Shown here: piece by piece, positions 17,025-61,582 of the stretch
Layout of the letters: each line of letters opens with the position of its first letter
Position numbering within the stretch: position 1 is the first letter of the stretch
Virus record (IMG/VR): IMGVR_UViG_3300045988_011398
Reading direction: 5' to 3' (one strand)
DNA length: 64,000 nt
Source: a virus
Made by a program: the position numbers and the translations under genes
Notes under the pieces: model-generated
What the model was told of the DNA's origin: nothing
Database searches by the model: none
Seen by the model: only the letters and a program-made list of their open reading frames with translations

Positions 17025-20000
17025 CTATTCAAAATAGTGTACTATCATATCATGAAGCACAGTCTTATTTGTATTCTCACCTTCCATTGACAACTTAATA
17101 TATAGCCAAGGGTTCCTCATTCTATCCCTACCATTAGTGCTGGCTCTTGGTATATTAGCTCTCCATATTCTGAACTTCTTCTTTAACTCAGAAGGTCTTC
17201 CAAGTATGTTATTGAGAGTTGCAGTACCAGTTTGGTACTCATTCCAAGTAGTCAAAGTATCAAATGTAGTATTAAGTAAAGTACTTCCATTCCATGAATC
17301 TGCCCTAAATTCAATATTATTGAATATCTTGTCCTCTGGCATATCAGGGTTAGCTATCACAGTAGTATAAAATGGTTGGTACTTATTGAAGAACATATTG
17401 TAATTGCCTTCATTATGCAACCATGCTTTATATATTGTACCCCCCTTAGCAGTGTTAAGAGCTATTCCTCTATCTTCAAGATTGATAAAATATGGCATGT
17501 GCTCATAACTATAGAATGAGGTAAACTGAGCAACAGGCTCAGAAAATGCAAGACACTCATCTTTTGATATAAAGAACACATCTCCATTTACCTTATCATA
17601 GTAAGTTACAAACCCATTGAAATCTACAGGGTTCCAAATATTAATACCAGTAGATTTAGCATTTATCCATGAGTGGAATCCTAATCTATCAGATAGATTA
17701 TCTAATTTACCATTAAATAGGAATATACCCTTAGTAGTATCATCTATAAAGTAAATGCCATTAGAGGTTTCACACATTGACCATTTATTAGCACATCCTA
17801 TCTTATCTGATAAATATCTCTTACCATTGACTTTACCACTGTTAGCTATCTCAATAGGAACTCCTTCAGTTGAAGTAATCTGCATATTTTCATTGTACAG
17901 AATCTGACTTATGCCTCTATCTTGAAAAGCAATGAGAGTATTATTAAATCTTCTTATTGCTCTCACATCTCCCTTGTCTCCATCAAGGTCAAGAGTAGAT
18001 GCTAATGTGATATTAGTCCATGTGTCAATTAATTCTCCAGCAGTCTTGGTCTTAGTCCATGTGATTGAGTTGTGGAAATTATCCAGATTCAATTTATTTG
18101 GATTGACTGTTCTGTAATTGAAGAAATTATTCTGTTGGCTATATACATCATTCATCAAGTTGAAGTTAGTAGGAGTTACAGCAAAGTTATTTGTCTGTCC
18201 TCTATTCCTATCATATCTTCCATCAATGTTTACTCTTGTTTCACACATGAATGATACAATATCAGTAATGGCATTCTGGTCTTCAAGAGTAAATGGATAG
18301 GTCTTCAGGTGGTCATATCTCTGATAATATGTGTCTCCCTCAGTCCATGTTATAGCAACACTACTCTTAACACCATTAGTGTCATTTATTAATGACACAG
18401 GGTCTCCACATGGAAGCCATTGATTATTTTCAAATGCTTCCTCAGTCTGACCTCCGAACCTGTTAGTAACCTCTGGATTGTATATCTCACCTAACCACAA
18501 CCACCCATATTCAATAGAATATCCATTGAATGAGCCATTTAGATTAGATAGTGGAATATCAAGAATACTCTGATAAGTACCTGCACATACCTTATTCTTA
18601 TCCCAAAAGGCATGTTGTCCAGATGATATGCTTCCAGCAACATTTACATTCCATAATTCTGTAGTAGAAGGGTATGATATGTCACCATCTTTAATGGTTG
18701 GTAAAATACATTGGTAGTGGTTCTCAGTAAAATTCAAAGCAATGACAGCATGAGGAGTTGATTTGTACTTCATTCTAACAGGGTCTACACCAGTAACTTG
18801 GTCTGTAAATCTACCATCAATCTGTATATAATTACCACTGAATAAGGAGTGTGCATTAGTGTCAGCATTCTGTACTCCAGTAGTCATTATAGGGTATCCT
18901 TCTTTCTTATCTCCTATTCTTGATATATTGATAATTTTATCTACATTACCATAGTAGTTTATATCCCCTAATCCAGAGTTCTTTTGGGCAGGCAGTCTTA
19001 CAAGTGAGACTTCATCAGAATCAAACACTACAATACCTGACACACCTGTCTTATATCCACTTCCCTCTCTATAGAAATTATATACACTTCCTGAGTCCAA
19101 GAAATAAGTATTGTAAGAAAATCTCATATTTGAAATCTTCTTTTTATCAAGCATAGCAGGTCTGTATCCATCTGTAGCCCATTTCTTATTATTCAAAGAA
19201 CCATTTCTGTGGAATGGATATACAACAAATCCTGTTGTATAGTGGTTTGAGTTTCCTGTATCTTTCTTGTAATCAGATAATTCATCAAACCAGAATCCAC
19301 CAGACATCAATCCTCTCCATCCAAATCTTGATATATTCTCAGAACTTACAGGCTCTTTGTAGAATCCCGGAGCTACCTCACTACTATCATAGTAGTTGTT
19401 AGCTGGTGTGGAGGTTTGAATATCAATATCTCCAATGAATGCTGTAAGTGGAACCATTCCTACAATCCTTAATTGCAGTCCTGAGGTATCTATACTTCTT
19501 ACATTATTATCAAACTCTATATCTGGAGAGTGTAATGTAACAATAGATTGGTCTATATAGAAATTCTCAGCATTTTGAGATACCCAAGCATTTACATCTG
19601 CTTCAGATGCAGTATCTGATACACTTGGCTTGCTTGGTGGATTCCATATACATTGTATTTCAGCATTTCTTTCACTATTTGAAGGTATTGGGTGTAGGTG
19701 TCTGAACTCAGCCCAAGCTCCTTTATTTGGCAATTCCATTATAAATGGAGTGCCATCATAATTCACATTGGTTCTGCTATTACTCATTACTCCTGCTCTT
19801 GAATTAGGAGTAGGGTCATGTAGTGGACCATTTTCTCTATCCCACCAGTCACCACCCCATTTTCCTGAAGAGTCCTGAGTATAGTGGTGAGCCTTATATT
19901 CATCAAATGGAGCATTTGCCCTTATAAACCAAGATGATTGGGCAAATGGGGAATTACCTTGTCTATCCCCTACATTAAATACAGTAGGACATAGAATACC

Positions 20001-53679: not shown

Positions 53680-53687
53680 CATTCCTC

Positions 53688-53866
53688 TGAGCATTAATAG
53701 TATTAAACCTCTGAGCATTAATAGGTTTGTGCTACAAAAGTTCAGTGTGGAATGAGAATGTTCAGTAGATTATATTACTGCACAAGAGTAATTAGGGGAT
53801 AGAGTGTGGAATGCACTTTATCCTCTTTTTATTTCTTTGAGCATTAATAGTCTTGAGCATTGATAG
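53688..53866 (+). repeat. Four copies of TGAGCATT(A/G)ATAG arranged as two pairs, each pair just downstream of a terminator hairpin
   Basis: Copies at 53688-53700, 53712-53724, 53838-53850 and 53854-53866. Flanks are also similar (TTC[CT]T[CT]TGAGCATTAATAGT ... TTGTG(T)GC). Confidence 0.8.
53795..53830 (+). terminator. Second terminator-like hairpin with a T-run
   Basis: GGATAGAGTG tggaatg CACTTTATCC (one G:U) followed by TCTTTTT. Confidence 0.55.
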
Positions 53867-54701
53867 ATTGTGTGCAATGTTTTATGATTCAATTAATTAA
53901 GTCTGTGAACTGAATGAAACTGGTTCACCTTATAAATTGAACTTATGCAGTGCTGTAGTCAGGTGAAGGTAGTAATGCAAAACCCCTCACTACTTTGCCA
54001 ATTTGAATCATCAACAAATCACCATCAATCTGTAATGTATAGCTAAATTTACTGAGTGCAACACAAAATCAAACTATTGATAACCTGATTAAATATCACC
54101 CCAATGCACAATATTGCCCAGTTTATTTGTGAATAATAGTAGCAAAAGACACCAAACACAGGGCTAAATGTGTGAGAGAACAAACTAATAATCCTATAAT
54201 CACTGATTAGTCATACATTATTTCTTATTTAGACTACTGAGGAGCATGACTTAATGAAAGTTAGCTGGGAAGTAAAGATACATACACCTCCAAGGACTGT
54301 GTGAGATTAAAAGGGTGATTTCATCACTCAGAATACATCAATAGCTTAGTGAGTGGAAAGGAATAGACTCAACTTAGAACCCAGAAACAAGTAATGAGTA
54401 AGATTGTGAACTGTGTATCCAATATTGTGTAGTAAAATAAAATATGATGTAGTAAAGTGGCACAGGTTTATGTTCAGTGCATTAAATAGGTAATGGAGAC
54501 TAAAGAGACATACATTATATAATAATATTGTCTTGGATAAAGTCTGACCTTCTATCTTTACAGGATTAATCAAGAGAACTACAAAGCACATTAGTTTAAT
54601 GGAAAACATTATTGAGGTATAGTACTTAATAATATGATGGTTCAAATCCATCATGTGCTTCAATTAACAAACAACAATCAATCAATCAAACTTTCAAACA
54701 A

Positions 54702-58400: not shown

Positions 58401-58725
58401 GGGGCATGATTTGGTTTTGATTGCTGATTATCAGGTAAGAGAACATGCAGAGACTGATGGAGAGACATCAAACAATTAACTGGCAATACTTCTTATAGAG
58501 TTGCTGCCTAAACATAGGCTGAGCAGCACTTGCTTGGAAACAGAAAGGTGCAATAGTGGTGGATTTTCCTTATTTATCTGACCCTGACAAGTTAAATAAG
58601 GTGGTGGAATGGTATGTCAATCCGGGCAACCCCAGTAGATAACCAACTGCACATCAAATAGGTAAGCATGTGAAATTCTTTTACAGGAGATTAGTAAGAC
58701 AGGGGTTCGAGTCCCCTATGCTCCA
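58401..58725 (+). ncRNA. ssrA: tmRNA (ssrA-like) with tag ORF GNTSYRVAA-stop
   Basis: 5' GGGGCATGATTTGGTTTTGATTGC matches the tmRNA 5' consensus. 3' GACAGGGGTTCGAGTCCCCTATGCTCCA gives a T arm plus acceptor. Acceptor GGGGCAT/ATGCTCC has G3:U70 (Ala identity). Internal frame GGC AAT ACT TCT TAT AGA GTT GCT GCC TAA lies at 58482-58511. CCA is not encoded. Confidence 0.85.
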
Positions 58726-58752
58726 CATTAAACTTAATTAATTCTTAAAACA

Positions 58753-59429: not shown

Positions 59430-60839
59430 ATGAGTAAAGTAAATCCGTCATTGAAGAAAACCTCAAAGTTTGAGGAAGAAAGATTGGCTGGTGGTTCAGG
59501 TGCATTAGCAGCTAAACAGAGTAATGTTGCATTGTTGAGGAGAGCAGTATTAGCTAATCTTCTTTGGGAAGATGTAGCATACATGGATGGAATGAAGGTT
59601 GCTGAAGAAATTCAGAGATTGATTCCTTTGTGTCCTGCTGAAGATGTATATCACATTGCTCTTGAAGCAAGGACAATGCAGAAGTTAAGACATACTCCTT
59701 TATTCCTTGCAGTGGAAATGTGCAAGTATCCTGAGCATAAGAAGTTTGTGCAAGAATTGCTGCCTCAGATTATCACAAGAGCAGACATGCTTACTGATTT
59801 CTTGGCTATTTATTGGAGGGATGGTAAGAAACCTATTGCTAATCAAGCAAAGAAAGGTTTGGCAAAGGCATTCCATAATTTCAATGAATACAAGTTTGCT
59901 AAATATGATAGAGATGCAGCTATTAAGCTGAGAGATGTCATGTTCTTATGCAGACCTAAGCCTGAGAATCAGTATGAGCAGACTTTGTTCAAGAAGGTAG
60001 CAGATAGAACTCTTGCAACACCTGAGACATGGGAAGTGCTACTGTCTACTGGAAAGGATAAGAAAGAGTCTTGGGCTAAACTTATCACTGAAGGTAAGAT
60101 TGGTGGTCTGGCTATGTTGAGAAATATAGCCAACATGAGAAGAGCAAGTGTGGACAAGAAGGTGATTGAAGAAGGTCTTGAGAAGTTGAAATCTTCAATG
60201 CTCATGCCTTTGGACTTCTTGAAAGCAAATAAAATGAACCCTGAGTTCAGCAGACAGATAGAGGATGCTATGATAAGTAGCTATGCTAATTTGCCTGAGT
60301 TGAAAGGTAAGACTCTTTTCATTGTGGATGTGTCAGGTTCTATGCAAGCTCCAATGTCTGCAAAATCTGATTTCAGCAGATATGATGCAGCATGTGCTAT
60401 GGCTATGTTAGCAGCCAATCAGTGTGAGGACTATGAAATAGTTTGTACTGCTGGTAATGACTACTCTCATACAGGAGCACATGAGCATATTCCTTATCCT
60501 CAGAAAGGTTTTGGAATCTTTGAACAAATCCATAGCACTAATAGGAGAATTGGAGGTGGAGGTATATTCACCAGACAATGCCTTGAATGGTGTAATGACA
60601 AGTTCAAGGGTCAGAAGTTTGATAGAATCATTGTATTCTCAGACTCTCAAGACTGTGACTTGCCTGCAAGGAGAGTTCCTAAACCTTTTGGTACTTACAA
60701 CTATATTTGTGATGTGTCAGCACACACAAAAGGTGTAAACTACAGAGGTGCATGGACTGCTGAGATAAGTGGCTTCTCGGAGCATTTCATCACATTCATT
60801 GCAGCAATGGAAGGTATTCAGAATACCTTTGAAGAATAA
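59430..60839 (+). CDS. rsr: Ro60-like protein (TROVE domain + vWA domain with a MIDAS motif), Rsr ortholog candidate
   Basis: 469 aa. N-terminal RLAGGSGALAAKQSNVALLRRAVLANLLWEDVAY and VYHIALEARTMQKLRHTPLFLAVEM resemble TROVE signatures. C-terminal LFIVDVSGSMQAPMS (DxSxS MIDAS) and IIVFSDSQD indicate a vWA fold. A Y-RNA-like element starts 4 nt after the stop. Confidence 0.7.
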   Translation: MSKVNPSLKKTSKFEEERLAGGSGALAAKQSNVALLRRAVLANLLWEDVAYMDGMKVAEEIQRLIPLCPAEDVYHIALEARTMQKLRHTPLFLAVEMCKYPEHKKFVQELLPQIITRADMLTDFLAIYWRDGKKPIANQAKKGLAKAFHNFNEYKFAKYDRDAAIKLRDVMFLCRPKPENQYEQTLFKKVADRTLATPETWEVLLSTGKDKKESWAKLITEGKIGGLAMLRNIANMRRASVDKKVIEEGLEKLKSSMLMPLDFLKANKMNPEFSRQIEDAMISSYANLPELKGKTLFIVDVSGSMQAPMSAKSDFSRYDAACAMAMLAANQCEDYEIVCTAGNDYSHTGAHEHIPYPQKGFGIFEQIHSTNRRIGGGGIFTRQCLEWCNDKFKGQKFDRIIVFSDSQDCDLPARRVPKPFGTYNYICDVSAHTKGVNYRGAWTAEISGFSEHFITFIAAMEGIQNTFEE

Positions 60840-60842
60840 AAC

Positions 60843-60986
60843 AAAGAGTACTGTGTAGTGTTTTGTCAGACTTACTTCATTAACTAAGTGGTATAGTGCA
60901 AAACTTTTAATTTTGATGTCACAGGTTCGAGTCCTGTATGAGATTGGGGAAACCTAAGTCTGACATCTGTTCTCACAGTACTCTTT
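60843..60986 (+). ncRNA. YrlA-like Y RNA: a long terminal helix carrying an embedded tRNA-like cloverleaf
   Basis: Terminal 13-bp helix AAAGAGTACTGTG/CACAGTACTCTTT, an internal loop, then 10-bp GTCAGACTTA/TAAGTCTGAC. Inside: acceptor-like TTCAT/ATGAG, D arm ACTA AGTGGTA TAGT, anticodon-like arm CAAAA CTTTTAA TTTTG, T arm ACAGG TTCGAGT CCTGT. Confidence 0.65.
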
Positions 60987-60993
60987 TCAATAT

Positions 60994-61125
60994 GGAGGAG
61001 TTAGCTCAGTTGGTAGAGCACTTAAATGTTACTCTGTCAAATGTTCCATAGTAATATTGGTGGCAGATAGAGTTACTTCGGTATGTGGAACCAGTGGTCA
61101 TAGGTTCGAGTCCTATACTCCTCCC
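60994..61125 (+). ncRNA. tRNA-like RNA 1: canonical acceptor, D and T arms, with ~74 nt in place of the anticodon arm
   Basis: GGAGGAGT...ACTCCTCC (8 bp possible), D arm GCTC AGTTGGTA GAGC, T arm ATAGG TTCGAGT CCTAT. The insert contains stem ACTCTGTC/GATAGAGT, a GTAA-capped hairpin and the motif AGAGTTACTTCGGT. Confidence 0.55.
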
Positions 61126-61126
61126 T

Positions 61127-61235
61127 AAATGCAGTATAGTGTACATTAGACTTTCATCAATTTGAATTTGATAATAGTTGCGGATATGCTTTTGCAAAGT
61201 GTATATATTGTCTGATGGCTTTTCTTACTGCATTT
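61127..61235 (+). ncRNA. Stem-closed structured RNA (unassigned)
   Basis: 10-bp terminal helix AAATGCAGTA/TACTGCATTT enclosing ~90 nt with internal hairpins (ATCAA...TTGAT; TTGC...GCAA). No ORF. Confidence 0.4.
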
Positions 61236-61243
61236 CACAATAT

Positions 61244-61375
61244 GGGGATGTAGCTAAATAAATTCATACTCTTATGCCTTTTCTCTGGTAAAGCAGTAGT
61301 GTTTGTAAGAGTTACTTCGGTTATAGCATTTGTCTTGTAAACAAAAGTATATTGGTTCGAGTCCAATCATCCCCG
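61244..61375 (+). ncRNA. tRNA-like RNA 2, paralog of tRNA-like RNA 1
   Basis: Acceptor GGGGATG/CATCCCC, T arm ATTGG TTCGAGT CCAAT, degenerate D region. The insert has a covarying stem ACTCTTA/TAAGAGT followed by the same AGAGTTACTTCGGT motif. Same 5' flank CAATATGG as RNA 1. Confidence 0.55.
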
Positions 61376-61381
61376 CAAAAT

Positions 61382-61518
61382 AGAGGTTGGTGTATGTAGT
61401 GGTTACTTCATATTATACATGACTATATTTGAATTTAACCCCCACAGATGTAAACAGACTGATTCTGTGGTTTCAATACATACAAAAACAACATGCCATT
61501 ACAGGATGTTCCACCTCT
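61382..61518 (+). ncRNA. Stem-closed structured RNA (unassigned)
   Basis: Terminal helix AGAGGT(T)GG/CCACCTCT. Inner pairings GTATGTA/TACATAC and hairpin CCACAGA...TCTGTGG. Contains GGTTACTTC, related to the motif in the tRNA-like RNAs. Confidence 0.4.
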
Positions 61519-61521
61519 TTA

Positions 61522-61553
61522 GGGCTACAGTAGAAATATTGTAGCCCTTTTTT
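61522..61553 (+). terminator. Intrinsic terminator closing the Ro60/ncRNA transcription unit
   Basis: GGGCTACA ...10-nt loop... TGTAGCCC followed by TTTTTT. Confidence 0.8.
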
Positions 61554-61554
61554 A

Positions 61555-61582
61555 TTTGAGTATGTTACCAAACATATATTTG
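61555..61582 (+). promoter_or_regulatory. Bacteroidetes-type promoter (-33 TTTG, -7 TATATTTG)
   Basis: TTTG at 61555-61558 and TATATTTG at 61575-61582, 27 nt upstream of the ATG at 61609. Confidence 0.55.

What the first reader, a model, noticed from the sequence alone, without database searches (positions are those of the whole stretch)
60994..61375. Two paralogous tRNA-like RNAs with real acceptor/T arms and a 75-90 nt expansion replacing the anticodon arm
Elements 60994-61125 and 61244-61375 both start after the flank CAATATGG. Both have 7-8 bp acceptor stems (GGAGGAGT/ACTCCTCC; GGGGATG/CATCCCC) and perfect T arms (GGTTCGAGTCC). In place of a 17-nt anticodon arm they carry long inserts. 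The inserts share a covarying helix (ACTCTGTC/GATAGAGT vs ACTCTTA/TAAGAGT) immediately followed by the identical motif AGAGTTACTTCGGT. Element 1 keeps a textbook D arm and a possible G-1:C73-like eighth pair, while element 2 has a degenerate D region. The flanks of the inserts cannot form an anticodon stem, so these are not simply intron-containing tRNAs. They may be a new class of tRNA mimic (Ro60 partners, RNase P/CCA-enzyme decoys, anticodon-nuclease decoys, or primers).
Basis: seen in the sequence. Interest (0 to 1): 0.78.

Follow-up and report, generated by a model that had tools for sequence, protein, structure and literature searches.

The report
Ro60-linked tRNA mimics carrying inserted hairpin
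Two unannotated RNAs next to a gut phage's Ro60 gene are complete tRNA look-alikes that carry an inserted, conserved hairpin shared with neighbouring Y-RNA-like genes, so they are most likely a new form of Ro60-partner "Y RNA" with a real, fast-changing anticodon loop.

Summary
Both elements exist as described, and they are conserved and covarying in more than 60 related phage loci. Neither element has lost its anticodon arm. E2 (61244-61375) is a full cloverleaf (anticodon UGU) with a ~59-nt insert inside the D loop. E1 (60994-61125) is a full cloverleaf (G-1:C73, anticodon GUG) with a 57-nt insert between positions 28 and 29 of the anticodon stem. Deleting the inserts in silico makes ARAGORN of 42 homologues as tRNAs.

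The insert is a conserved bulged hairpin followed by an invariant UUACUUC. A model of it hits only these two sites in the 64-kb window. Elsewhere it hits almost only next to TROVE/Ro60 genes, on the same strand. Here that gene is ORF 59430-60839, directly upstream. The same module, circularly permuted, forms the terminal stems of three Y-RNA-shaped neighbours (Y0, Y2, Y3).

The anticodon changes between near-identical phages while U33 and purine-37 are kept.

Best reading: non-permuted, tRNA-bodied Y RNAs that partner the phage Ro60, possibly as anticodon-loop baits. This is a new variant of a known kind. Ro60 binding and RNA processing are inferred, not shown.

The parts
59430..60839 (+). Phage Ro60 (TROVE + vWA) gene, immediately upstream of the RNA cluster
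   Evidence: Pfam TROVE E 8.9e-14, with weaker vWA_Ro60 and VWA_2 matches. phmmer to Thermus phage phiLo Ro60 (PDB 9KOP/9L5Y) gives E 9e-16 over residues 24-461. The crAss001 orthologue Gp96 is annotated as a TROVE domain protein.
60843..60986 (+). Y0: a Y-RNA-shaped element. Its leader (60843-60873) and trailer (60956-60986) pair to form the 'open' version of the module around a tRNA-Lys(UUU)-like body (60874-60945). Motifs: UAGUG 60856-60860, UUACUUC 60872-60878, GUUCU 60969-60973.
   Evidence: ARAGORN and Rfam call the tRNA body (59 bits). RNAfold gives -45.7 kcal/mol, z -3.6, with the long terminal stem. After circular permutation it aligns collinearly with the closed modules.
60994..61125 (+). 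E1: tRNA-His-like cloverleaf with a 57-nt insert between positions 28 and 29. Acceptor 60994-61001 with 61117-61124 (8 bp including G-1:C73); D arm 61004-61019; split anticodon stem 61021-61022 plus 61080-61082 with 61090-61094; anticodon GUG 61085-61087; T arm 61100-61116.
   Evidence: Rfam tRNA 46.1 bits with a 70-nt insertion. With the insert deleted in silico, ARAGORN calls tRNA-His(gtg). On 16 spliced homologues, 96.6% of cells are paired and 16 of 22 pairs show compensatory changes.
61023..61079 (+). E1 insert: linker, closed module and motif. Helix a 61031-61038 with 61066-61073; GUUCC 61043-61047; capped hairpin 61048-61057; U-GGUG 61058-62; invariant UUACUUC 61073-61079.
   Evidence: Covariance model R1 scores 64.4 bits at 61030-61080. 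Module covariation: 94.7% paired against 24-48% for slid controls, with 9 of 14 pairs compensatory.
61127..61236 (+). Y2: open-module, Y-RNA-shaped element that fills the E1-E2 spacer. Terminal helix AAAUGCAGUA with UACUGCAUUU; UAGUG 61137-61141; the UUACUUC motif is degenerate here (UUUCAUC).
   Evidence: RNAfold -28.9 kcal/mol, z -2.8. Permuted alignment to the closed modules. Relatives L007 and L009 carry an intact TTACTTC in this spacer.
61244..61375 (+). E2: tRNA-Thr-like cloverleaf with a ~59-nt insert in the D loop. Acceptor 61244-61250 with 61368-61374; D stem 61253-61256 with 61324-61327; anticodon arm 61329-61345 (UGU at 61336-61338); T arm 61351-61367.
   Evidence: Rfam tRNA 34.3 bits over model positions 9-63. 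With the insert deleted in silico, ARAGORN calls tRNA-Thr(tgt). On 20 homologues, 96.1% of cells are paired and 19 of 34 pairs are compensatory, including the D stem that encloses the insert.
61267..61319 (+). E2 closed module plus motif. Helix a 61268-61274 with 61306-61312; UUCU-CUG...CAG-UAGUG (UAGUG 61297-61301); UUACUUC 61312-61318, followed by G18 G19 at 61319-61320.
   Evidence: R1 scores 66.5 bits. Covariation as counted.
61386..61490 (+). Y3: a weaker open-type element (GUGUAUG-UAGUG-G-UUACUUCA ... AAUACAUAC).
   Evidence: The motif pair T[AG]GTG-N-TTACTTC is present. RNAfold gives only -24.2 kcal/mol, z -1.1, and the permuted alignment is poor. This part is tentative.
61521..61548 (+). 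Intrinsic terminator that closes the Ro60 + RNA cluster unit
   Evidence: 12-bp stem followed by a T run. It is the only + strand terminator-like site between the Ro60 stop codon and the next ORF.

Best explanation
E1 and E2 are non-coding partners of the phage Ro60 protein, that is, Y RNAs built on an unpermuted tRNA body.

**Shown**
- Each is a complete, covarying cloverleaf with an open acceptor stem, a D/T elbow and a real anticodon stem-loop.
- Each carries one inserted module: helix a, an internal loop, then a short helix with a U-U mismatch and a bulged U (5'-GUUCY...URGUG-3') capped by a variable hairpin, followed by a single-stranded UUACUUC.
- The same module, circularly permuted, forms the terminal stem of the neighbouring Y-RNA-shaped genes.

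**Inferred**
- The five RNAs are co-transcribed with the early Ro60 gene up to the terminator at 61521-61548.
- They are cut apart by tRNA-processing enzymes at the tRNA-like ends.
- The module is the docking site for the Ro60 ring.
- The tRNA body is the effector or bait domain. It presents an authentic-looking anticodon loop to a tRNA-binding factor.
- My preferred sub-hypothesis is that this factor is a host tRNA-targeting (anticodon) nuclease or a repair enzyme. The RNAs would then act as Ro60-tethered decoys or sensors rather than as decoders in translation.
For: **Context.** The elements start 155 nt after a TROVE+vWA ORF on the same strand. In crAss001 the orthologous stretch is unannotated and lies directly downstream of Gp96 TROVE, an early gene (PMC8375218).

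**Specificity of the module model R1**
- 2 hits in the 64-kb window, both inside the finding.
- 144 hits in 57 related loci, all on the + strand and within about 1.2 kb after the TROVE gene.
- In 99.6 kb of the crAss001 genome, hits occur only there.
- In 39 divergent TROVE loci (37-71% identity), 16 hits with E<0.01 in 13 loci, all on the TROVE strand. All but one (L209 1253-1316) lie within a few hundred nt, at most about 800, of the gene.
- In about 1.8 Mb of pattern-selected control loci, 9 hits with E<0.001 in 6 loci. Three of those loci are TROVE-linked (one is a contig already in the set) and three are tRNA arrays.

**Structure**
- Module: 93-95% of cells paired, 9-11 of 14 pairs compensatory.
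- E2 and E1 cloverleaves.
- An invariant U-G pair and many G-U pairs mean the fold forms only on the TROVE-strand transcript.

**Kinship with Y RNAs**
- Y0, Y2 and crAss001 Y0' have the classic Y-RNA shape and align with the module after permutation.
- YrlA-like RNAs next to very distant TROVE genes (24-29% identity) carry AGUUACUUCC or AUACUUCA at the stem/tRNA-domain junction.
- Published YrlA RNAs are tRNA mimics encoded within 4 kb of Ro60 on the same strand (PMC4201824).

**Not ordinary tRNAs**
- The anticodon differs between close relatives that share the same acceptor stem. E1 family: His, Lys, Ser, Glu, Gln, Phe, Asn. E2 family: Thr, Pro, Ser, Met, Ile, Gln, Asn, Tyr.
- Anticodon-loop columns are 5-8 times more variable than the rest of the element.
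- Even so, U33 is kept in 17 of 21 distinct loops and purine-37 in 21 of 21.
Against: - No binding, expression or RNA-end data were available. Ro60 docking to the module is inferred from linkage only.
- The canonical Ro60-site motif of YrlA and metazoan Y RNAs (GNCGAAN0-1G) is absent.
- Rfam's YrlA model scores 20.8 bits against a gathering threshold of 69, and that match spans a chimeric stretch.
- In known Y RNAs the Ro60-binding helix lies next to the RNA termini. Here it is capped by a loop.
- Insert-bearing tRNAs also occur inside ordinary tRNA arrays (L098, L121, L273) with no TROVE gene in the DNA held. One of them even has an encoded CCA. That pattern suits a tRNA-like life cycle.
- No RNA-repair or nuclease gene was recognised among the window's neighbouring ORFs.
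Confidence: 0.6

Rival explanations
1. They are genuine tRNA genes interrupted by a new kind of intron. The module would act as a protein-recognised handle. An unknown endonuclease would excise it and an RtcB-type ligase would rejoin the halves. The products would be functional tRNA-His and tRNA-Thr, or other specificities in relatives.
For: - Removing the insert in silico restores a tRNA that ARAGORN calls in 42 of 42 cases.
- All tRNA helices covary.
- U33 and purine-37 are kept.
- Some relatives sit inside tRNA arrays, and one has an encoded CCA.
- In bacteria, rsr is often in an operon with the splicing-type ligase RtcB (PMC7790460). The YrlA literature itself raises the possibility of processing to tRNA-like forms (bioRxiv 10.1101/312249).
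Against: - No group I or other ribozyme match in the region at E up to 10. A 57-59-nt insert is far too small for a self-splicing intron (established knowledge).
- By inspection there is no bulge-helix-bulge motif, and the insert position differs between elements: D loop, 28/29, anticodon loop in L020, and the acceptor ends in Y0.
- The same module also occurs with no tRNA at all (crAss001 Y0').
- The anticodon changes while the acceptor and identity elements stay the same (for example G-1:C73 with UUU in L004). That would cause mischarging or miscoding (plus known identity rules).
- The window already has tRNA-His(gtg), tRNA-Thr(tgt) and tRNA-Lys(ttt) in its main array.
Confidence: 0.08
2. 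The tRNA bodies are only scaffolds and punctuation marks. They give RNase P and RNase Z sites that cut the polycistronic early transcript into separate stable RNAs, and they stabilise the embedded module. The anticodon arm would have no function of its own.
For: - The elements alternate (Y0, E1, Y2, E2, Y3) with no internal terminator.
- tRNA-like processing of Y RNAs has a precedent: M. smegmatis YrlA is cut by RNase P (PMC4201824; bioRxiv 10.1101/312249).
- The acceptor and T arms are the best-conserved tRNA parts.
Against: - A mere scaffold would not need a covarying 5-bp anticodon stem with a 7-nt loop that keeps U33 and R37.
- Nor would it be expected to turn over its anticodon 5-8 times faster than the rest of the RNA.
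- This reading overlaps with the best explanation rather than excluding it.
Confidence: 0.17
3. They are decaying tRNA pseudogenes disrupted by a repeated or mobile sequence, or DNA-level signals of the early region such as hairpin promoters for the virion RNA polymerase. In either case they would have no function as RNA.
For: - The region recombines readily. There is an E1/E2 chimera in L031, the copy number varies from 2 to 4 closed modules per locus, and there are module remnants.
- Early promoters of crAss-like phages are unknown (bioRxiv 10.1101/2020.03.07.982082).
Against: - Every helix keeps pairing through compensatory changes, down to about 40% TROVE identity.
- G-U and an invariant U-G pair would be C-A and A-C mismatches on the other strand.
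- The structures span the whole 130 nt, including acceptor stems that would be meaningless for a promoter.
- There is no excess of sigma-70-like promoters.
Confidence: 0.05

Closest known systems
YrlA (Y RNA-like A; Rfam RF02553), the tRNA-mimicking Ro60/Rsr partner of bacteria and mycobacteriophages
   Same: - Encoded on the same strand within a few hundred nt of a TROVE/Ro60 gene, often in multiple copies.
- Modular: a bulged or internal-loop helix plus an L-shaped tRNA-like domain with conserved D and T arms.
- A 'UACUUC'-type motif at the stem/tRNA-domain junction is shared with YrlA-like RNAs near distant TROVE genes.
   Different: - YrlA is a circularly permuted tRNA. Its ends form the Ro60-binding stem in place of the anticodon stem, its acceptor stem is a closed hairpin, and it has no anticodon loop and no free CCA end (bioRxiv 10.1101/312249).
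- E1 and E2 have the opposite topology: an open acceptor stem, a capped module, and a genuine anticodon stem-loop.
- The GNCGAAN0-1G motif is absent, and the Rfam score is far below threshold.
Deinococcus radiodurans Yrn1 and classical Y RNAs
   Same: The neighbours Y0, Y2 and crAss001 Y0' have the classical shape: a long stem made by the 5' and 3' ends, an internal loop, and a distal effector domain. Yrn1 can also be drawn with T- and D-like arms and an anticodon-like arm (PMC4201824).
   Different: E1 and E2 themselves do not use their termini for the stem. The Yrn1 'anticodon loop' has 6 nt and no variable arm. Here the loops have 7 nt with U33 and R37. No sequence similarity to the metazoan or Deinococcus Ro60 site was found.
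Archaeal tRNA genes with non-canonical introns, and permuted or split tRNAs
   Same: tRNA genes interrupted at unusual positions, including the D loop and positions 29/30, that become normal cloverleaves once the insert is removed. Permuted relatives exist.
   Different: Those introns are defined by a bulge-helix-bulge motif that the archaeal/eukaryal splicing endonuclease cuts. No such motif or enzyme is evident here, and the hosts are Bacteroides phages. The insert is a conserved, protein-site-like module that also occurs outside tRNAs.
Phage tRNAs whose anticodon loops mutate to evade host anticodon nucleases (e.g. T5; eLife 2023, PMC10264068)
   Same: Phage-encoded tRNA-shaped RNAs whose anticodon loop is the focus of evolutionary change, in a genome with a large tRNA array.
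   Different: Those are functional decoders that keep their anticodon and change neighbouring loop positions. Here the anticodon triplet itself is swapped between specificities, and the RNA carries a large insert that should be incompatible with ribosome use.

Membership tests
tRNA (RF00005) | Cloverleaf with acceptor, D, anticodon and T helices and the D-loop GG / T-loop UUCRA elbow nucleotides | tested here: met
   All four helices are present and covary in both families. GG is present in the D-loop region of the E2 homologues by inspection. Rfam tRNA scores 46.1 and 34.3 bits, above the gathering threshold of 29.
tRNA (RF00005) | Contiguous 70-95-nt molecule with no large insertion outside the variable arm or the 37/38 intron site | tested here: not met
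   Both elements are 132 nt. The inserts are 57 nt at position 28/29 in E1 and ~59 nt in the D loop of E2. ARAGORN does not call either element.
tRNA (RF00005) | Stable decoding identity: anticodon conserved among orthologues and consistent with the acceptor/discriminator identity elements | tested here: not met
   The E1 family shows 7 anticodon specificities and the E2 family at least 8, on essentially the same acceptor stems. The loops are 5-8 times more variable than the rest of the element.
tRNA (RF00005) | 3' CCA end, aminoacylation and use on the ribosome | not testable with these tools
   No CCA is encoded after C73 of E1 (CTAAAT follows the discriminator C) or after G73 of E2 (CAAAAT follows the discriminator G). 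CCA could be added after transcription. One distant relative in L121 has an encoded CCA.
YrlA (RF02553) | Encoded near (<4 kb) and on the same strand as a Ro60/TROVE gene | tested here: met
   155 nt and 405 nt downstream of ORF 59430-60839, on the same strand. The same holds in more than 60 related loci.
YrlA (RF02553) | Match to the curated covariance model at or above its gathering score | tested here: not met
   The best match is 20.8 bits (gathering threshold 69). It spans the T arm of Y0 and the D arm of E1, so it is chimeric.
YrlA (RF02553) | Permuted topology: 5'/3' ends form the Ro60-binding stem in place of the anticodon stem; acceptor stem closed by a loop; no anticodon loop | tested here: not met
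   E1 and E2 have an open acceptor stem at their ends, a capped module, and a 5-bp stem with a 7-nt anticodon loop. YrlA features are taken from bioRxiv 10.1101/312249.
YrlA (RF02553) | Conserved GNCGAAN0-1G motif associated with the Ro60 site | tested here: not met
   No match, and no CGAA at all, in 60840-61560. The motif is defined in PMC4201824.
Y RNA (functional class) | Physical binding to Ro60 through a conserved bulged helix | not testable with these tools
   A conserved helix with a U-U mismatch and a bulged U exists and tracks TROVE genes. Binding itself was not measured.
Intron-containing tRNA (group I or BHB type) | Recognisable splicing signal: a group I ribozyme core, or a bulge-helix-bulge at the exon-intron junctions | tested here: not met
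   No ribozyme or intron family matches at E up to 10. The inserts are 57-59 nt. The junctions form a three-way junction in E1 and a D-loop branch in E2, not a BHB (inspection).

The most novel reading that the evidence does not exclude
The inserts are a previously unknown class of tRNA intron, a protein-(Ro60-)recognised module. It would be excised and the halves religated, for example by a host RtcB-type ligase. Phages would then carry a cassette of conditionally matured tRNAs whose anticodon can be swapped rapidly. That would be the first protein-dependent tRNA splicing pathway in the bacterial or phage world, and it would give Ro60 a direct role in tRNA biogenesis.
Probability: 0.07. Interest if true: 0.95.

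Novelty: new variant of a known kind. Interest (0 to 1): 0.72.

Why it matters
**Open questions about Ro60.** Ro60 and Y RNAs are conserved from bacteria to humans, where Ro60 is a lupus and Sjögren autoantigen. What the tRNA-like half of bacterial Y RNAs does is still unknown, and so is where Y RNAs came from.

**What these elements add**
- They are the missing unpermuted form: a full tRNA, with free acceptor ends and a true anticodon loop, carrying the Y-RNA stem as an insert.
- They sit beside permuted versions in the same operon. This supports a tRNA origin of Y RNAs by insertion plus circular permutation.
- The fast-changing but canonical anticodon loop points to an interaction with anticodon-reading factors, such as nucleases, repair enzymes or modification enzymes. 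It therefore points to the phage-host conflict over tRNA.

**Why it is testable now.** The elements are present but unannotated in crAss001, a cultured member of the most abundant phage group of the human gut, and the Ro60 gene there is an early gene. Direct experiments are possible: Ro60 RIP, tRNA-seq and deletion mutants.

**Practical point.** tRNA finders miss E1 and E2, and they mislabel Y0 as a plain tRNA-Lys.

Tried and rejected
- **UUCG tetraloop (rejected).** I read the shared 'ACTTCGGT' as a UUCG-tetraloop hairpin. The pairing is not conserved: crAss001 has UUACUUCAAAAG or UUACUUCAAGG.
- **E1 pseudoknot (rejected).** A GUUCCA/UGGAAC pseudoknot in E1 has no counterpart in relatives.
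- **Self-cleaving or self-splicing ribozymes (rejected).** The sensitive Rfam scan of 60850-61560 found nothing beyond tRNA and a weak YrlA match.
- **TTACTTC as an early promoter of the virion RNA polymerase (not supported).** The phi14:2 study found no common early motif. The motif is embedded in covarying RNA structure.
- **Extension of helix a through a U-U mismatch (GUU-ACUCU with AGAGU-UAC) (rejected as a general feature).** It is seen in window E1 and in L148 but is not conserved.
- **Loose pattern scans (mostly noise).** AGTTACTTC-N-GGTTC in viral contigs and the module pattern in genomes returned mostly chance matches. Filtering with R1 kept 9 hits with E<0.001 in 6 loci.
- **Complete genomes related to the array-embedded elements (failed).** Searches with L098 and L121 gave only generic tRNA similarity. 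Whether those genomes encode TROVE remains untested.
- **RNA-repair neighbours (nothing found).** Pfam and PHROGs found none among the window's neighbouring ORFs, and the window has no homologue of the crAss001 PNK genes.
- **Copies of the phage's own tRNAs (rejected).** E1 and E2 are only 67-71% identical to any tRNA of the array.
- **Exact helix-by-helix homology between the module and the YrlA stem (unresolved).** 'AUGUUCC' and 'UUGGGG' resemble each other, but the position of ACUUC conflicts.
Full report
**1. What is in the sequence**

The window is a crAss-like phage. The nearest cultured relative is Bacteroides phage crAss001 (Kehishuvirus). The finding matches crAss001 at 96159-96596, a stretch with no annotation.

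Rfam's tRNA model hits E1 end to end (60995-61124, 46.1 bits) but has to skip 70 nt. It hits E2 only from the D region to the T arm (61310-61367, 34.3 bits). ARAGORN calls neither. It does tRNAs and a tmRNA elsewhere in the window. The shared 14-mer AGAGTTACTTCGGT occurs exactly twice.

**2. Corrected anatomy**

E2 reads as follows:
- acceptor GGGGAUG;
- U8 A9;
- D stem GCUA (61253-61256);
- a D loop that contains a ~59-nt insert and ends ...UUACUUC-GG-UUA;
- D stem UAGC (61324-61327);
- an ordinary anticodon arm UUUGU-CUUGUAA-ACAAA (61329-61345, anticodon UGU);
- a 5-nt variable loop, the T arm, and acceptor CAUCCCC followed by G73.

On 20 distinct homologues this cloverleaf has 96.1% of cells paired, against 37-52% when the partners are slid. 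Nineteen of 34 pairs show changes on both sides. That includes the D stem that encloses the insert (C:G to U:A and U:A to G:C), three anticodon-stem pairs, four T-stem pairs and four acceptor pairs.

E1 has an 8-bp acceptor stem (G-1:C73) and a normal D arm, followed by A26 C27 U28. A 57-nt insert (61023-61079) comes next. Then comes G29 G30 U31, the loop AUGUGGA, and A39 C40 C41 A42 G43. Together these form a perfect 5-bp anticodon stem around a 7-nt loop with anticodon GUG. A UGGUC variable loop and the T arm follow.

I removed the inserts in silico using fixed distances from the D and T arms. ARAGORN then called 42 of 42 elements as tRNAs. On 16 spliced E1 homologues, 96.6% of cells pair. 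Sixteen of 22 pairs have compensatory changes, including all five pairs of the split anticodon stem. The -1:73 pair switches G:C to U:A. One caveat applies: the 3' boundary was chosen among three loop lengths for best pairing, so this alignment leans slightly towards the structure.

These were that the expansion replaces the anticodon arm, that the flanks cannot form an anticodon stem, and that E2's D region is degenerate.

**3. The insert is one conserved module**

From 5' to 3' the module consists of:
- helix a, 5' strand (ACUCUNNN);
- a 3-5-nt joiner;
- GUUCY;
- a short hairpin of variable length and loop (GUAA, GAAG and others);
- U-R-G-U-G;
- a joiner;
- helix a, 3' strand (NNNAGAGU);
- single-stranded UACUUC.

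GUUCY and URGUG form a continuous irregular helix: a U-G pair, a U-U mismatch, C:G, Y:R, and a bulged U. C:G becomes A:U in L040 and L098, and Y:R switches between C:G and U:A.

On a 19-sequence seed, 94.7% of cells pair (24-48% when slid), and 9 of 14 pairs are compensatory. A covariance model built from this seed (R1) gave these results:
- exactly two hits in the window, both in the finding (64.4 and 66.5 bits; the next best scores 11 bits);
- 144 hits in 57 related loci, all on the + strand and all within about 1.2 kb downstream of the same gene;
- on the 69 distinct hits, 93% of cells paired, 11 of 14 pairs compensatory, and an invariant U-G pair.

The many G-U and U-G pairs mean the fold exists only on the transcript of this strand.

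**4. The decisive context: a Ro60 gene**

The gene directly upstream (59430-60839, + strand) encodes a TROVE + vWA protein. Pfam TROVE gives E 8.9e-14. phmmer to the crystal structure of Thermus phage phiLo Ro60 gives E 9e-16 over residues 24-461. The crAss001 orthologue Gp96 is annotated as a TROVE domain protein and is an early gene (PMC8375218).

In bacteria and phages, Y RNAs are encoded within 4 kb of Ro60 on the same strand. At least one of them (YrlA) mimics tRNA (PMC4201824).

The linkage holds far beyond close relatives:
- In 99.6 kb of the crAss001 genome, R1 hits only the 600 nt after Gp96.
- In 39 TROVE loci with 37-71% protein identity, R1 gives 16 hits with E<0.01 in 13 loci, all on the TROVE strand. 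All but one (L209 1253-1316) lie within a few hundred nt, at most about 800, of the gene. They are downstream in the closer group and upstream in the ~40% group.
- The sequences include E1-type insert-bearing tRNA-likes (L218, L209, L228, L219, L222, L220, L247, L252), E2-type ones (L218, L209), and a YrlA-order domain followed by a closed module (L233).
- In about 1.8 Mb of loci pulled in by loose patterns, R1 found 9 hits with E<0.001 in 6 loci. L070 is a contig already in the set. L271 is a Bacteroidota contig whose TROVE is 56% identical and adjacent. L265 carries two TROVE paralogues. L098, L121 and L273 are tRNA-array contigs.
- Three further chance pattern hits (L148, L152, L139) turned out to be YrlA-like RNAs next to TROVE genes only 24-29% identical to this one (YrlA 41.6 and 36.6 bits, below threshold). 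They carry AGUUACUUCC or AUACUUCA where the stem meets the tRNA-like domain. The UACUUC junction motif is therefore shared well beyond crAss-like phages.

**5. The neighbours are permuted versions of the same thing**

The combined motif T[AG]GTG-N(1-14)-TTACTTC occurs on the + strand of the whole window only at 60856, 61058, 61297 and 61388/61397.

- **Y0 (60843-60986)** is a long stem made from a leader and a trailer around the 'tRNA-Lys(ttt)' that ARAGORN reports. It carries UAGUG on the 5' side, GUUCU on the 3' side, and UUACUUC leading into the tRNA body.
- **Y2 (61127-61236)** fills the spacer between E1 and E2.
- **Y3 (about 61386-61490)** is weaker.
- **crAss001 Y0'** (L001 2822-2912) has the same open stem around a plain hairpin, with no tRNA.

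RNAfold recovers the predicted shapes, with z scores of -3.6, -2.8, -1.1 and -2.7. When each 3' half is joined to its 5' half, Y0, Y2 and crAss001 Y0' align collinearly with the closed modules.

The cluster therefore holds five RNAs with one shared platform. In three it is open at the termini, the classical Y-RNA shape. In the other two it is capped and inserted in a tRNA. A single strong terminator (61521-61548) follows the cluster.

**6. The anticodon loop is the fastest-evolving part yet stays canonical**

Among close relatives (TROVE 88-99% identical), the mean pairwise difference is 0.38-0.40 per column in the anticodon loop. It is 0.047-0.073 overall and 0.0 in UUACUUC. For example, the window has AUGUGGA and L004 has CUUUUAA on an identical stem.

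The called specificities are:
- E1 family: His, Lys, Ser, Glu, Gln, Phe, Asn;
- E2 family: Thr (three anticodons), Pro (two), Ser, Met, Ile, Gln, Asn, Tyr.

These sit on essentially unchanged acceptor stems. Of 21 distinct loops, 17 keep U33 and all 21 keep a purine at position 37.

By the known identity rules, such swaps would cause mischarging or miscoding in a working tRNA. An example is HisRS reading G-1:C73 while the anticodon reads Lys codons. The window's main array already supplies His(gtg), Thr(tgt) and Lys(ttt). E1 and E2 are only 67-71% identical to any tRNA of that array. This pattern argues for mimicry of anticodon stem-loops, not decoding. That is an inference.

**7. How it most likely works**

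*Shown:* the structure, conservation, covariation, strand, and linkage to Ro60.

*Inferred:*
- The cluster is transcribed with the early Ro60 gene.
- The tRNA-like ends are cut by RNase P and RNase Z-type enzymes, as reported for M. smegmatis YrlA. This would release five RNAs.
- Ro60 docks on the bulged GUUCY/URGUG helix with helix a and UUACUUC.
- The tRNA body recruits or distracts a tRNA-binding factor.

Three observations shape my preferred sub-hypothesis, which I put at about 0.25-0.3. The loops are variable but canonical. rsr-Y RNA modules are associated with RNA repair in the literature (PMC7790460, PMC7824862). crAss001 carries genes annotated as polynucleotide kinase/phosphatase, Gp60 and Gp61 (annotation only). 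I therefore favour a Ro60-tethered bait or decoy for host anticodon-directed nucleases, or a sensor or platform for tRNA repair.

**8. Rivals**

- **A new tRNA intron (0.08).** It is attractive because excision restores perfect tRNAs, and because relatives sit inside tRNA arrays (L098, L121, L273), one of them with an encoded CCA. Against it: no splicing signal, variable insertion sites, the module also occurs without a tRNA, and the anticodon is unstable.
- **Scaffold or punctuation only (0.17).** This overlaps with the main reading. It does not explain the maintained anticodon arm.
- **Pseudogenes or DNA signals (0.05).** Covariation and the strand-specific G-U pairs contradict this.

**9. 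Comparison with what is known**

The closest family is YrlA. It shares the gene neighbourhood, the modular logic and the tRNA mimicry.

E1 and E2 nevertheless fail YrlA's defining tests:
- the Rfam score is 20.8 bits against a threshold of 69, on a chimeric span;
- the GNCGAAN0-1G motif is absent;
- the topology is inverted.

YrlA is described as a circularly permuted tRNA with a closed acceptor stem, no anticodon loop and no free CCA end (bioRxiv 10.1101/312249). E1 and E2 are the unpermuted counterpart with an anticodon loop.

I found no paper in the searchable library that describes such RNAs, or any Y RNA of crAss-like phages. The crAss001 papers mention the TROVE gene only as a possible ribonucleoprotein component.

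**10. Verdict**

This is a real, conserved, unannotated RNA class, and a new variant of a known kind (Ro60-associated tRNA mimics). Interest is high but not extreme. The family context is known, whereas the architecture, the permutation series within one operon and the hypervariable anticodon are new. All of this is directly testable in a cultured gut phage.

Noticed in passing
window 60843-60986 (tRNA call 60874-60945): The 'tRNA-Lys(ttt)' reported by ARAGORN and Rfam is embedded in a 13-bp + 9-bp leader/trailer stem that carries the same UAGUG / GUUCU / UUACUUC signature as the inserts. It is probably a Y-RNA-like molecule (or its precursor), not an ordinary tRNA gene. Its acceptor stem has a C-A mismatch.
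   Followed up: partly
window 61127-61236 and 61386-61490: Two further Y-RNA-shaped elements lie here: Y2 in the E1-E2 spacer and Y3 after E2. The Ro60 gene is therefore followed by five tandem structured RNAs before a single terminator.
   Followed up: partly
L031 4699-4856: This is a chimera: the 5' half of E1 is joined to the 3' half of E2 exactly at the shared GAGTTACTTCA motif, giving mismatched acceptor strands. It could be recombination between the repeated modules or an assembly artefact. More generally, copy number and order of the modules vary between loci (2-4 closed modules).
   Followed up: no
L098 4110-4240 (-), L121 4310-5290 (-), L273 4600-4760 and 6180-6320 (+): Insert-bearing tRNA-likes of the same design lie inside large ordinary tRNA arrays of other viral or MAG contigs, with no TROVE gene in the DNA held. 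One in L121 ends ...GCCCGCCA, that is, with an encoded CCA. I could not determine whether these genomes encode Ro60 elsewhere.
   Followed up: partly
window 58401-58728: A phage-encoded tmRNA (ARAGORN tag peptide GNTSYRVAA*; Rfam 66.4 bits) lies about 0.7 kb upstream of the Ro60 gene, in the same RNA-rich early region.
   Followed up: no
window 54585-54661: An odd tRNA: ARAGORN reports an undetermined type with a four-base 'anticodon' atag (enlarged loop), and Rfam tRNA scores 47.1 bits. It could be a suppressor or frameshift-type tRNA, or another mimic.
   Followed up: no
window 53680-53870: Four direct copies of TGAGCATTAATAG-like sequence (one reads TGAGCATTGATAG), interleaved with hairpin-like GC-rich stretches, lie in a non-coding region downstream of a small ORF. 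Their meaning is unknown.
   Followed up: no
L001 2731-2812 (crAss001, just after the TROVE stop): A hairpin AAAGAGUGAG...CUCACUCUUU encloses GGUCCAAGUGAG. This loosely recalls the metazoan Y-RNA Ro60 site GGUCCGAAGGUAGUGAG. It could be a further Y-like RNA or simply a structured spacer, and it is absent from the window.
   Followed up: no
L379 19478-20349 (crAss001 Gp60, Gp61) and 17424-17864 (Gp55): crAss001 is annotated with polynucleotide kinase/phosphatase genes and a HicA-like mRNase. That fits a tRNA or RNA damage-repair conflict. tblastn found no homologues in this 64-kb window.
   Followed up: partly
L265 3582-6294; L139 2480-2711: L265 (a Candidatus Angelobacter MAG) has two tandem TROVE paralogues (42% and 40% identical to the window protein) with a module-like hit upstream. 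L139 has a sub-threshold HDV-like ribozyme match (37.8 bits against a threshold of 44) and a tmRNA fragment next to its TROVE-linked RNAs.
   Followed up: no
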